In this document: in pieces, positions 61,736 through 64,000 of the stretch
How positions within the stretch are numbered: position 1 is the first letter of the stretch
Layout of the letters: each line of letters opens with the position of its first letter
Assembly: GCA_000004985.1 (NCBI GenBank)
Contig: GG738847.1
Reading direction: 5' to 3' (one strand)
DNA length: 64,000 bases
Source: Naegleria gruberi
Taxonomy: Eukaryota
Notes under the pieces: model-generated
What the model saw: only the letters and a program-made list of their open reading frames with translations
The model's database searches: none
What the model was told of the DNA's origin: nothing
Made by a program: the position numbers and the translations under genes

Positions 61736-64000
61736 ATGGGAAATCATCACACTAGTGGTTCATCAATGTTTGCATCGGTGAATGATCGTCAAGATGTGAT
61801 GAATCCGAGACAACGAAAACTTCAAGAACAACAATACGAAACTGACCAAGTTTCGAATGACGATGACGAAATGAACCAAGAATTGACTCGGATGGTCAAG
61901 GAACAGGAACAAGTCGATGAGAATGAAATTAAAAATGGTTTGCCATTTGGTGTAATTCTGTTAGGAAGTGCAGATTCAGGAAAGTGTAAGTTTGCAAATT
62001 CGAAACCTTTCTAATAATTTATTGGATGTAATTGGATGAATTTGAAATACATTTTCTAATAGCAACACTTTGGAATCGATGGAAACTACAAACTCAACCC
62101 TTGTCTCAATCAGAGAAGGTAGAATTTGCCAATTCCATCCTCACATATATTATTACATGTTTGAAACGATTACTTGATTTGGCAAAATCGACACTTTCCA
62201 AAGAAGATTATCAAAACTTGTATTCGAAACATGATTTCTCTATTGATTTGCTTTCTCAAATATCAGAATGTGGTTCAACTTTCGAATACTTATTTACGAA
62301 TCCCATTTCAAAGACGAAAATGCAATCTCTGTGGATTGATCATGATTTTATTGCACATTTACCAGCTCTCTTTATGGAACCATGTATTCAAGAGTTGTAT
62401 TTGAATCAATTTAAAGGTAAATCAGATTCGAATAATGATCATTCGAATCATCCTTACTTTCATTCGAATCAGATAGATGGCGAGGAAGGTATCGTCAATG
62501 AAATTCTATTAGGCAATTATCTGCACTACTTTTTACAAACACCTTCCTTCCTACAAGAATTATCCGAAACCTTTACACACTCTGCTGCCAACTCAATATT
62601 GAGAGATTATTCCACCTCTCCTTCAAGTGAATTGTTTTCGAAACCCATCCAATTAACTCTGAATGATATTCTCAAATCAAAGATTGTCACAACCTCAATC
62701 AACACTTTGAAATTTCAATTCTCTAAAAAATCAATCAGCACAAAAGTGATTAAAGTTATTGAGAAGAGAAAGAGAGGATTATCAGGAGCTGCTTTACCTA
62801 ATTCTGGAGTAGTTGCTTCTCCATCAGGTAATTGTCCAAATAATGAATCGATTCAAGTTCATGGAAAATGTGGAAATGTTGCAATTCCAAAATTGGTTTT
62901 GAATACAGTTCCAAAGGAGGAAAAGAGCTTGCTGCCAAAAAGTGCTCGTGGTAATTCCATGACTCCTAGAAGTAATAGTGTGAATAGTAAGCCAGTTTCA
63001 GTTTCCATTACTGCAAATGATGAGAGTGTGCAAAATTCACCACCAAAGAAGACAACCACAAAGAAATTGGTCGAATCGTTGGTTAGAAAACGATCAGGAA
63101 GCAATAATAATGCGAATGCAGCAACAACTAGCACTTCAACAAACTCAAAGGGTCCCTATTTAGTCATCTCTCCTGCAAATTCACCTCGTTCCTCAATTGC
63201 AAGTGAGGGATCTTCGTTTAGTCCATTGCTGGGAACTTCTCCATCGTCCTCATCAATGGGTATGCCTTCTCCTAATTTCAATCAGCAATCAAGTGGAAAT
63301 AATTCTGCCAACATGCAGAGTAGTTCAGGTTCGAGTGTTGTGAGGGCAATGCAAGAGAGTACATTCACTTTGGATTCATTTGAAAAGAAGAAATTACAAA
63401 AGTTTACAATACTAGATACTCCTGGAGTTATTTCTCAGAGAGATTTGGTCAGTATGACATTGAATGCATCAACTCGACCAACAGCAACATTTTCATTGAA
63501 GAGTGTAGTGTTTATGTGTTCATTGGCAGATTTTGATCTCACAACAATAGATGGAAAAGATGATAAAATTAAGAGATTGCATGACAGCTTGGCATTCTTT
63601 GAAAAGACACTTGTCATGTCAAATAATCTCAAAGAAATGAGAAGAATCCTTGTCTTTACTCATGTAGACGTTTTCGAGCATCGAATTCTCAATGAATTGA
63701 CCTCCCCAAAGAAGAAACAATTACTGGAATTGTTGGGAATTGCTGTCAATGAAGATGATTTGGAAAATTGTGAACTTGTTCACTTGACCTTCAAACACAT
63801 TGTCTCACTATTCGAAACTTTGGAAAAGAAGAATCCTCACAAGTACATTCTCGAATATTACGCCCTCAATATGATGGATACTAGAGATGTTTGCGAATTT
63901 ACCTACCACCTCACCATGAGAGATGGTTACACTAAAAAGGATTATCCATCCATGACTTCAATTAATGTCTATTCTTCACCAATAGTTTCTGGATGTGAAT
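61736..64000 (+). CDS. Divergent G-protein alpha-subunit-like GTPase with a long Ser/Asn-rich insertion. It is partial and runs off the window. It has 2 exons at 61736..61985 and 62063..>64000, with a 77-nt intron.
   Basis: N-terminal MGNHHTS is a myristoylation-type motif. The P-loop GVILLGSADSGK is followed by a T then gtaagt...ctaatag, continuing STLWNRWKLQ...SQSEKVEFANSILTYIITCLKRLL (cf. G-alpha GAGESGKST..KQMKIIH..GYSEEE....SN..QS..AI.RAM). Downstream are ILDTPGVISQRD and ILVFTHVDVFEHRI (cf. DVGGQR and LFLNKKDLF). The frame is open to the window end, which is why the ORF track does not list it. Confidence 0.55.

What the first reader, a model, noticed from the sequence alone, without database searches (positions are those of the whole stretch)
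61736..64000. Myristoylated, highly divergent G-alpha-like GTPase with altered switch and NKxD motifs and a long Ser/Asn-rich insert
The N-terminal MGNHHTS and the P-loop plus alphaA region (GSADSGKSTLWNRWKL...SQSEKVEFANSILTYIITCLKRLL) resemble heterotrimeric G-alpha. The DVGGQR position reads DTPGVISQRD and NKKD reads THVD. About 350 residues of low-complexity sequence are inserted where the helical domain would lie. This could be an atypical G-alpha with altered nucleotide specificity or cycling, similar to XLG or extra-large forms. The gene runs off the window.
Basis: partly seen in the sequence, partly recalled or inferred. Interest (0 to 1): 0.5.

Follow-up and report, generated by a model that had tools for sequence, protein, structure and literature searches.

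The report
Divergent, probably GTPase-dead Naegleria G-alpha
This is a real, conserved gene of the amoeba Naegleria gruberi for an unusual G-protein alpha subunit that keeps its nucleotide-binding residues, has lost the residues needed to hydrolyse GTP, and carries a roughly 200-residue floppy loop; it is a moderately interesting lineage-specific variant of a well-known family.

Summary
The ORF is real: exon 1 at 61736-61985, a 77-nt intron, and exon 2 from 62063 to beyond 64000. It is identical to N. gruberi XP_002682208.1 (750 aa, "predicted protein"); 21 codons lie outside the window. Pfam places it in G-alpha (88.6 bits, cutoff 48.8). An AlphaFold model superposes on whole G-alpha structures (TM 0.72-0.79). 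The helical domain is present (about aa 99-273). A disordered Ser/Asn/Pro-rich insert of about 200 aa (aa 321-522) splits the beta2-beta3 hairpin after switch I. Orthologues exist only in N. fowleri, N. lovaniensis, Willaertia magna and one metagenomic contig. They share the same phase-1 intron in the P-loop codon and show strong constraint on the deviant half (dN/dS 0.10). The phosphate, Mg and guanine-Asp residues are kept. The Arg finger is Lys, Gly183 is Ser/Ala/Asn/Leu, and the catalytic Gln is Val/Leu/Ile. These positions match the engineered GTPase-dead and RGS-insensitive mutants. THVD keeps the specificity Asp and resembles LRRK2's THLD, so loss of guanine specificity is not supported. 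Most likely this is a lipid-anchored, GTP-binding, hydrolysis-deficient G-alpha regulated through its loop. Deviant Naegleria G-alphas are already noted in the literature. Interest is modest.

The parts
61736..61985 (+). Exon 1 (aa 1-83 plus the first base of codon 84): MGNHHTS myristoylation-type N-terminus, acidic/Gln-rich leader, alphaN helix (aa 42-67), beta1 and the first part of the P-loop (GSADSGK)
   Evidence: identical to XP_002682208.1
61986..62062 (+). 77-nt GT..AG intron, phase 1, inside the codon for the Ser that follows GK in the P-loop
   Evidence: same position and phase in N. lovaniensis (62 nt), the metagenomic contig L001 (61 nt) and N. fowleri (182 nt)
62063..64000 (+). Exon 2 (aa 84-729 within the window); the ORF continues for 21 more codons beyond the window edge
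61964..62067 (+). G1 / P-loop GSADSGKST (aa 77-85, spans the intron); the GxxxxGK[ST] pattern is intact
62107..62631 (+). All-helical domain (aa 99-273) with the landmarks SLWIDHDF and LGNYLHYFL, plus an internal 33-aa disordered loop (aa 200-232)
   Evidence: Pfam stretch aa 47-316 to profile 4-191/333; AF2 helices; TM 0.72-0.79 to whole G-alpha chains
62665..62721 (+). Switch I and beta2: DILKSKIVTTSI NTLKFQF. K290 stands in for the Arg finger (Galpha-i1 R178), T293 is the Mg-binding Thr (T181), and S295 replaces G183
62722..62787 (+). Family-specific conserved basic helix SKKSISTKVIKVIEKRKRGLSG (aa 304-325), directly after beta2
   Evidence: Conserved in all five species; AF2 helix 308-325
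62773..63378 (+). Disordered Ser/Asn/Pro-rich insert of about 200 aa (aa 321-522) in the beta2-beta3 hairpin, with conserved islands IPKL (62884-62895), LLPKSARG (62929-62952) and KLVESLVRKRSGS (63064-63102)
   Evidence: (pLDDT < 50 for most of it); dN/dS 0.53
63397..63471 (+). Beta3 and G3/switch II: QKFTILDTPGVISQRDLVSMTLNAS. D535 and G538 are kept, V539 replaces the catalytic Gln (Q204), and R543 corresponds to R208
63640..63669 (+). Beta5 and G4: RRILVFTHVD. T616-H617 replace Asn-Lys; D619 (the guanine-specificity Asp) is kept
   Evidence: THLD precedent in LRRK2 ROC
63844..63918 (+). Beta6/G5 (YILEYYALNMMD; A684 corresponds to Galpha-i1 A326) and a short alpha5 helix (aa 690-702)
63919..64000 (+). 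Start of a family-specific C-terminal tail (aa 703-750, low model confidence) that replaces the receptor-coupling end of alpha5; it is cut by the window edge
   Evidence: the gene really ends here, since N. lovaniensis has a convergent gene 19 nt after the stop

Best explanation
The gene encodes a lineage-specific paralogue of the heterotrimeric G-protein alpha subunit. It was found only in vahlkampfiid amoebae (Naegleria, Willaertia) and one metagenomic contig.

Shown. It has the G-alpha two-domain fold, a Ras-like domain plus a helical domain. The residues that bind phosphate, Mg and guanine are intact: the P-loop, switch I Thr, DxxG, the G4 Asp and the G5 Ala. So are the switch II/alpha3 pair equivalent to R208 and E245. 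The deviant half is under strong purifying selection.

Inferred. The protein is N-myristoylated and binds GTP at a membrane, but it cannot switch itself off. The Arg finger is Lys in all five species. Gly183 is Ser/Ala/Asn/Leu, and G183S is the RGS-insensitive change. The catalytic Gln is Val/Leu/Ile in Naegleria, and Leu is exactly the classic Q-to-L 'constitutively active' mutation. It would therefore sit as a long-lived GTP-bound (or nucleotide-state-insensitive) membrane scaffold. Control would have moved from the GTPase timer to the ~200-residue disordered loop in the beta2-beta3 hairpin. That loop keeps short conserved motifs, including a basophilic-kinase-type RKRS site, that could be phosphorylated or bound by partners. 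The replaced switch II surface and C-terminal tail suggest it no longer couples to G-beta-gamma or to receptors in the canonical way.
For: Homology and fold: Pfam G-alpha at 88.6 bits against a cutoff of 48.8. The best PDB sequence hits are G-alphas. The AF2 core is confident and Foldseek gives TM 0.72-0.79 to whole G-alpha chains, including N. fowleri Galpha7 (6ne6).

Residue map in Galpha-i1 numbering. The Galpha-i1 reference sequence was verified as identical to PDB chains.
- Kept: G40/K46/S47, T181 (Ser in the metagenomic form), D200, G203, R208, R242, E245 (Asp or Glu), D272, and A326 (Thr in the metagenomic form).
- Changed: R178 to K in all five species. G183 to S, S, A, N or L. Q204 to V, L, L or I (Q kept in Willaertia). 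N269-K270 to T-H (T-K in Willaertia).

R178C and Q204L are GTPase-deficient and G183S is RGS-insensitive in Galpha-i1 (PMC10996109).

Constraint: dN/dS between N. fowleri and N. lovaniensis is 0.10 for beta3 to the C-terminus and 0.31 overall. The intron is conserved at the same codon and phase.

Insert: disordered in AF2, variable in length at 154-233 aa, yet it keeps the islands IPKL, LLPKSAR and VRKRS.

THxD is compatible with guanine nucleotides: LRRK2 ROC has THLD.

Precedent: deviation of catalytic motifs in some of the ~44 N. gruberi G-alphas and nucleotide-independent plant XLGs (PMC8584482).
Against: There is no biochemical or expression data for any member. A Lys at the Arg-finger position might retain some catalysis, and only R-to-C was covered in the paper I read. 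Willaertia keeps the Gln and the G4 Lys, so the family may have begun as a working GTPase, and some members may still hydrolyse GTP. The AF2 alignment contained 26 canonical G-alphas, so the model is partly homology-guided and says nothing about nucleotide binding. Myristoylation rests on a permissive pattern, and the metagenomic orthologue has Phe rather than Ser/Thr at position 6. The regulatory role of the loop is pure inference from conservation of short motifs.
Confidence: 0.5

Rival explanations
1. It is a cycling switch whose missing catalytic residues are supplied in trans by a dedicated GAP. Rap1GAP does this for Rap1, which lacks the catalytic Gln, by supplying an Asn. The protein would then still turn on and off by GTP hydrolysis, but only with a family-specific partner.
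For: All nucleotide- and Mg-binding residues and the R208/E245-type switch pair are conserved. Strong purifying selection acts on switch II and its surroundings (dN/dS 0.10). Both fit a working conformational switch. Naegleria encodes very large RGS and GAP repertoires (PMC9283941).
Against: No candidate GAP is known. RGS domains do not donate catalytic residues, and Gly183 is replaced. The Rap analogy is from memory and was not tested here.
Confidence: 0.2
2. It is a nucleotide-independent pseudo-GTPase scaffold. It binds nucleotide weakly or not at all and acts only through protein-protein contacts, as proposed for plant XLG2.
For: There is precedent in XLGs (PMC8584482). G4 lacks Asn and Lys in Naegleria. 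The switch II surface and the C-terminal tail are remodelled.
Against: Unlike a decayed site, the P-loop GxxxxGK[ST], the Mg-binding Thr/Ser, DxxG, the guanine Asp and the G5 Ala are kept across five species. That is hard to explain without nucleotide binding.
Confidence: 0.15
3. It is an ordinary heterotrimeric G-alpha that cycles, pairs with G-beta-gamma and is controlled by receptors or 7TM-RGS proteins. On this view it is merely sequence-divergent.
For: It meets the Pfam family threshold and has the fold. An alphaN helix and a lipidation signal are present. Naegleria G-alphas are self-activating and RGS-regulated (PMC9283941).
Against: R178K, G183S/A/N/L and Q204V/L/I correspond to GTPase-dead and RGS-insensitive positions. 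The switch II residues that face G-beta (KKW) are replaced. Alpha5 is short and the receptor-binding C-terminus is replaced by an unrelated tail. The large loop sits in the beta2-beta3 hairpin, which lies near the receptor interface (established structural knowledge, from memory).
Confidence: 0.08
4. It has altered base specificity because NKxD reads THVD, binding for example ATP or XTP.
For: Asn and Lys of NKxD are both replaced in Naegleria.
Against: The Asp that hydrogen-bonds the guanine base and the G5 Ala are conserved. THLD is the G4 motif of LRRK2 ROC, which binds guanine nucleotides (from memory). Willaertia has TKID.
Confidence: 0.05
5. It is a pseudogene, a gene-model artefact or a small-GTPase fusion.
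For: It scores weakly against single canonical sequences (PDB phmmer E about 1e-6). One N. fowleri model is merged with the upstream actin-related gene.
Against: The frame is intact for more than 2.2 kb. Five species conserve the motifs. The intron position and phase are conserved. dN/dS is 0.31 overall and 0.10 in the C-terminal half. The helical domain is present and there is no Arf hit.
Confidence: 0.02

Closest known systems
Canonical heterotrimeric G-alpha subunits (Pfam PF00503), e.g. human Galpha-i1 and N. fowleri Galpha7 (PDB 6ne6)
   Same: Ras-like plus helical two-domain fold. The P-loop, switch I Thr, DxxG, the alpha3 R/E pair, the G4 Asp and the G5 Ala are kept. An N-terminal Met-Gly lipidation signal and an alphaN helix are present.
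   Different: Arg finger is Lys, Gly183 is Ser, catalytic Gln is Val, and NK of NKxD is TH. A ~200-aa disordered loop sits in the beta2-beta3 hairpin. There is an extra basic helix and a 9-aa loop between alpha2 and beta4. Alpha5 is short and followed by an unrelated ~48-aa tail. Identity to canonical G-alphas is only about 20%.
Engineered GTPase-deficient / RGS-insensitive Galpha-i1 mutants (R178C, Q204L, G183S)
   Same: The natural protein is substituted at exactly these three positions. N. fowleri and N. lovaniensis carry Leu at the Q204 position.
   Different: The Arg is replaced by Lys, not Cys. All three changes occur together, are evolutionarily fixed, and come with many other changes. 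The effect on hydrolysis has not been measured.
Plant extra-large G proteins (XLG1-3)
   Same: G-alpha homologues with degenerate catalytic motifs, thought to act largely independently of the nucleotide cycle (PMC8584482). This is a possible functional analogy.
   Different: XLGs are 'extra large' because of an N-terminal extension with NLS and NES signals. Here the extra length is internal: a beta2-beta3 loop and a helical-domain loop. XLGs are plant-specific, and no specific sequence relationship was found in the exhaustive search.
LRRK2 ROC domain (ROCO family) G4 motif
   Same: T-H-x-D in place of N-K-x-D.
   Different: Unrelated GTPase family with no helical domain. The resemblance is limited to one motif and is probably convergent.
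Constitutively GTP-bound atypical small GTPases (Rnd proteins, RhoH) - from memory, not tested
   Same: Natural substitutions at catalytic positions give hydrolysis-deficient, lipid-anchored GTPases. These are regulated by phosphorylation, partner binding and expression level rather than by GAPs.
   Different: They belong to a different branch of the Ras superfamily. The analogy concerns the proposed mode of regulation only.

Membership tests
G-alpha homology family (Pfam PF00503) | Profile match above the curated gathering score | tested here: met
   88.6 bits against a cutoff of 48.8, E = 5.8e-25, two stretches. A home-made canonical G-alpha HMM gave E = 4e-32.
G-alpha homology family (Pfam PF00503) | Ras-like GTPase domain with an all-helical domain inserted between alpha1 and switch I | tested here: met
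   AF2 helices at aa 99-273 lie between alpha1 (83-94) and switch I (285-296). Foldseek TM 0.72-0.79 over whole G-alpha chains. Caveat: the AF2 alignment included canonical G-alphas.
Canonical G-alpha GTPase switch (functional class) | G1 P-loop GxxxxGK[ST] | tested here: met
   GSADSGKST, aa 77-85, conserved in all five species.
Canonical G-alpha GTPase switch (functional class) | Switch I catalytic Arg (Galpha-i1 R178) and Mg-binding Thr (T181) | tested here: not met
   The Arg is Lys (K290) in all five species. The Thr is kept (T293; Ser in the metagenomic form).
Canonical G-alpha GTPase switch (functional class) | G3 DxxGQ with the catalytic Gln (Q204) | tested here: not met
   DTPGV. D535 and G538 are kept. 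The Gln position is V, L, L or I in the three Naegleria species and the metagenomic form, and Q only in Willaertia.
Canonical G-alpha GTPase switch (functional class) | G4 NKxD | tested here: not met
   THVD (TKID in Willaertia). Only the Asp is kept.
Canonical G-alpha GTPase switch (functional class) | G5 TCA[TS] | tested here: inconclusive
   YYAL. The Ala aligns with A326 (at least 90% conserved column), but the flanking residues differ and profile alignments of this segment disagree between species.
Canonical G-alpha GTPase switch (functional class) | RGS-contact Gly183 in switch I | tested here: not met
   S, S, A, N and L in the five species. G183S is the RGS-insensitive mutation (PMC10996109).
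Canonical G-alpha GTPase switch (functional class) | Binding of G-beta-gamma, and receptor coupling through the C-terminus of alpha5 | not testable with these tools
   The sequence only hints. The switch II KKW is replaced, alpha5 is short, and the tail is unrelated.
Canonical G-alpha GTPase switch (functional class) | N-terminal lipid modification | not testable with these tools
   MGN[HQ]H is conserved. The PROSITE-type pattern is met in N. gruberi and N. fowleri. There is no Cys for palmitoylation. The modification itself was not shown.
Plant XLG / mammalian XL-alpha-s 'extra-large' G-alphas | Large N-terminal extension fused to a G-alpha domain | tested here: not met
   The G-alpha profile match starts at aa 47. 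The extra length is internal.
Arf/Sar small GTPases (PF00025) | Profile match; single Ras-like domain without a helical domain | tested here: not met
   No PF00025 hit even at E <= 10. The helical domain is present.

The most novel reading that the evidence does not exclude
A vahlkampfiid-specific G-alpha has become a natural 'R-to-K / G-to-S / Q-to-L' protein: permanently GTP-loaded and RGS-blind. It has replaced the GTPase timer with a phospho-regulated disordered loop of ~200 residues inserted in the beta2-beta3 hairpin. Willaertia would preserve an intermediate stage, with the Gln and the G4 Lys still present. That would be an evolutionary series showing how a heterotrimeric G-alpha turns into a hydrolysis-independent membrane scaffold.
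Probability: 0.35. Interest if true: 0.5.

Novelty: new variant of a known kind. Interest (0 to 1): 0.3.

Why it matters
Engineered Q-to-L and R-to-C G-alphas are standard laboratory tools and cancer drivers. Here evolution has fixed substitutions at those same positions and kept them under strong selection in free-living and pathogenic Naegleria. This offers a natural test of what a G-alpha can do without its GTPase timer. It parallels the debate over nucleotide-independent plant XLGs, and Willaertia appears to preserve an intermediate stage. Because the family seems restricted to Naegleria and its relatives, it could also serve as a lineage marker. The finding does not open a new class of system. 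N. gruberi is already known to hold about 44 G-alphas, some with deviant catalytic motifs.

Tried and rejected
- Word-indexed protein searches were saturated. The full-length query, the insert-deleted query and a family-plus-canonical profile each scored only 8000 candidates and returned 2-5 hits. The exhaustive representative search was what defined the family.
- A single glocal hmmalign across the insert failed, aligning only one half per sequence. I replaced it with separate alignments of the N- and C-terminal parts.
- Possible 3' extension or another domain after the tail. I suspected this from the 'F.D[IV]' ending and a 1344-aa N. fowleri model. It is rejected: that model is an N-terminal merge with the upstream actin-related gene, and in N. 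lovaniensis a convergent gene starts 19 nt after the stop.
- An earlier reading of switch II as DTPG plus a 3-residue insertion before QR. It is rejected in favour of the gapless profile alignment, in which R543 matches R208 and the extra 9 residues lie between alpha2 and beta4.
- My guess that PDB 8vga was a Naegleria protein was wrong. It is from Selaginella.
- Exact-sequence contig look-ups found nothing for P0001, P0006 and P0007.
- A metagenome scan for more members found none.
- Anantharaman et al. 2011 (Gene 475:63) is not held in the library. Whether it lists this exact protein could not be checked.
- Bosch et al. 2022 list 13 N. fowleri G-alphas by AmoebaDB ids. I could not map these to FDP41_007793.
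- Conserved synteny with the upstream gene is absent. The upstream neighbour is a kinase/DUF4116 gene in N. gruberi but an actin-related gene in N. fowleri and N. lovaniensis.
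Full report
WHAT IS THERE. The window is AT-rich eukaryotic DNA (about 33% GC). An ATG at 61736 opens a frame reading MGNHHTS. The frame runs to GSADSGK and then meets a GTAAGT...TAG intron of 77 nt (61986-62062). Splicing in phase 1 restores GSADSGK-S-TLWNRWKL, and the frame then stays open for 729 codons up to the window edge. The spliced product is 100% identical to a deposited Naegleria gruberi protein of 750 aa: XP_002682208.1 / NAEGRDRAFT_62161 / UniProt D2V041, named only 'predicted protein'. 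Only the last 21 residues fall outside the window. All reported coordinates were verified by translation.

IS IT A G-ALPHA? Yes, by homology. Pfam G-alpha (PF00503) scores 88.6 bits against a curated cutoff of 48.8 (E = 5.8e-25). The only other hit at E <= 10 is a sub-threshold MMR_HSR1 match, and there is no Arf/Sar hit. Sequence search of the PDB finds only G-alphas at the top: Selaginella Galpha1 (8vga), Entamoeba Galpha1 (4fid) and a chain named 'Guanine nucleotide-binding protein alpha-1 subunit' (9sh6), followed by Galpha-i and Galpha-t chains. I built an AlphaFold2 model on an alignment of 4 family members plus 26 canonical G-alphas. It is confident for aa 70-200, 233-305 and 527-705. 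It superposes on complete G-alpha chains with target-normalised TM 0.72-0.79, including N. fowleri Galpha7 (6ne6). Because canonical sequences were in the alignment, this shows compatibility with the fold rather than independent proof. It agrees with the profile evidence.

WHERE THE INSERT REALLY IS. They do not. The Pfam stretch aa 47-316 covers profile positions 4-191 of 333, which includes the helical domain. The model has helices at aa 99-273 between alpha1 and switch I. The helical-domain landmarks are recognisable in the sequence: SLWIDHDF corresponds to LWKDSGVQ, and LGNYLHYFL to DSAAYYLNDL. This correspondence is my own reading; the profile alignment of this segment was unreliable. Switch I (DILKSKIVTTSI) and strand beta2 (NTLKFQF, 297-303) precede the low-complexity region, and strand beta3 (QKFTILD, 529-535) follows it. 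The insert therefore splits the beta2-beta3 hairpin, which in Galpha-i1 is a 2-4-residue turn. Measured between the conserved motifs IEKRK and FEKKKL, it is 202 aa in N. gruberi (aa 321-522) and 154-233 aa in the relatives. Over aa 323-505 it is 22% Ser, 12% Asn and 9% Pro, and most of it is predicted disordered. A separate 33-aa disordered loop lies inside the helical domain (aa 200-232).

THE FAMILY. An exhaustive HMMER search of 1.84 billion cluster representatives, using a profile of the two orthologues then known, found very few close relatives. These are N. fowleri FDP41_007793 (921 aa); N. lovaniensis C9374_007047 (843 aa); a metagenomic contig (ENA ERZ27315067); two exon-1 fragments; and two Willaertia magna models with consecutive locus tags (ABK040_002243 and 002242) that are the N- and C-terminal halves. 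After these, scores fall steeply to ordinary ~350-aa G-alphas at E = 6e-10 to 1e-3. A scan of JGI metagenome contigs added nothing. The intron lies in the same codon (the Ser/Thr after GK of the P-loop) and in phase 1 in N. gruberi, N. lovaniensis, N. fowleri and the metagenomic contig. It is 77, 62, 182 and 61 nt long respectively. Several automatic gene callers missed it, giving truncated or read-through models.

CONSTRAINT. Between N. fowleri and N. lovaniensis (60% protein identity, dS about 1.1), dN/dS differs by region:
- 0.31 for the whole gene
- 0.47 for the N-terminal leader
- 0.36 from the P-loop through the basic helix
- 0.53 for the insert
- 0.10 for beta3 to the C-terminus, the part that carries the deviant DTPG and THVD motifs
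The gene is functional, and its oddest part is its most constrained. Inside the variable insert, short islands are conserved across all five species: IPKL, LLPKSAR and KL..(L/M)VRKRS. A basic helix directly after beta2, LKFQ[FY]S[KQ][KR]SI.T[KR]VI.VIE[KR]RK, is also conserved.

RESIDUE-LEVEL READING. I used Galpha-i1 numbering. My recalled Galpha-i1 sequence was verified as identical to PDB chains. Family members were aligned in two pieces to a canonical G-alpha profile, and this was cross-checked with the family alignment.
- Kept: P-loop GxxxxGK[ST] (G77-T85); Mg-binding T181 (T293; Ser in the metagenomic form); D200 and G203 of DxxG (D535, G538); R208 (R543); its alpha3 partners R242 and E245 (R588; D591, Glu in the others); the guanine-reading D272 (D619); and A326 (A684; Thr in the metagenomic form).
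- Changed: Arg finger R178 to Lys in all five. G183 to Ser, Ser, Ala, Asn or Leu. Catalytic Q204 to Val, Leu, Leu or Ile, with Gln kept only in Willaertia. N269-K270 to Thr-His, Thr-Lys in Willaertia.
- Also changed: the KKW face of switch II is replaced. Nine residues are added between alpha2 and beta4 in Naegleria and the metagenomic form. Alpha5 is short (aa 690-702) and is followed by an unrelated, poorly modelled ~48-aa tail. That tail is the true end of the protein.

WHAT THIS IMPLIES. In Galpha-i1, R178C and Q204L are the standard GTPase-deficient, constitutively active mutations, and G183S makes the protein insensitive to RGS proteins (PMC10996109). The family carries substitutions at all three positions while retaining everything needed to hold GTP-Mg and to move switch II. 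My best-supported reading (inference, confidence about 0.5) has four parts. The protein is myristoylated and membrane-bound. It binds guanine nucleotide. It hydrolyses GTP very slowly, if at all. It is not rescued by RGS proteins. It would therefore act as a long-lived 'on' or nucleotide-state-insensitive scaffold. Regulation would then plausibly pass to the conserved motifs in the disordered loop, for example the basophilic-kinase-type RKRS site and several Ser-Pro sites, and to the basic helix.

The specificity Asp and the G5 Ala are kept, Willaertia has TKID, and LRRK2's ROC domain carries THLD at G4. ROC binds guanine nucleotides (from memory).

The rivals cannot be excluded without biochemistry. 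They are a trans-acting GAP that supplies catalytic residues (Rap/RapGAP-like; analogy from memory), complete loss of nucleotide binding (XLG-like), and a merely divergent canonical G-alpha. A pseudogene or a small-GTPase fusion is effectively excluded.

COMPARISON AND NOVELTY. N. gruberi is reported to have about 44 G-alphas. [quoted passage not shown] 2011). That primary paper is not in the library. Bosch et al. 2022 list 13 N. fowleri G-alphas, five of them never cloned, under identifiers I could not map to this orthologue. The general phenomenon is therefore known and the protein is already in the databases. However, I found no description of this particular subfamily's combination of features:
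- restriction to vahlkampfiid amoebae (plus one metagenomic contig of unknown origin)
- the R-to-K, G-to-S and Q-to-V/L/I substitutions
- THVD at G4
- a ~200-aa loop in the beta2-beta3 hairpin
- a new C-terminal tail
The plant XLG analogy is functional at best, because XLGs owe their size to an N-terminal extension. I rate this a new variant of a known kind, with modest interest (0.3). The Willaertia sequence (Gln and the G4 Lys retained, Arg already Lys) suggests stepwise loss of catalytic residues. That is the most attractive aspect to follow up.

LIMITS. There are no expression, localisation or biochemical data. The AF2 model is homology-guided. Myristoylation rests on a permissive motif. 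The Willaertia protein is reconstructed from two gene models, and the source organism of the metagenomic orthologue is unknown.

Noticed in passing
window 1-380: The window opens with about 55 tandem copies of CCCAAA (TTTGGG on the other strand). These degrade into CCTAAAAA-type variants by about position 380. The C-rich strand reads 5'->3' from the sequence end, the orientation expected for a left telomere, so the window probably starts at a chromosome or scaffold end.
   Followed up: partly
window 59810-61279 (+): The upstream neighbour encodes a partial protein-kinase domain followed by many 25-aa DUF4116 repeats (a 75-nt tandem repeat, 8.6 copies, 60587-61231). The reading frame is interrupted near 60890-60950 by a stop and frame change, or by a small intron. 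It is not syntenic with the G-alpha gene in N. fowleri or N. lovaniensis, where an actin-related gene lies upstream.
   Followed up: partly
window 44730-45546: Overlapping ORFs lie on both strands across a cluster of short tandem repeats with AGAGGTGG-type units. One frame would give an RGG/Gly-Arg-rich low-complexity protein.
   Followed up: no
window 20000-26000: There is a low-GC stretch (23-28% against about 34% elsewhere) containing Thr/Asn-rich coding-type tandem repeats (21344-21867, periods 39 and 111) and an 869-aa ORF at 22742-25351.
   Followed up: no
L003 (N. fowleri) and L002 (N. lovaniensis), and protein P0059: Public gene models for this family are often wrong around the P-loop intron. 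One N. fowleri model (CAG4713844.1, 1344 aa) fuses the gene to the upstream actin-related gene. Several assemblies' callers start in the intron or read through it. The Willaertia gene is split into two models.
   Followed up: yes
window 55137-56240 (+): A 367-aa ORF with a U-box domain (E = 6.8e-16) lies about 5.5 kb upstream. The 340-aa ORF at 56471-57496 (-) has no Pfam match.
   Followed up: no
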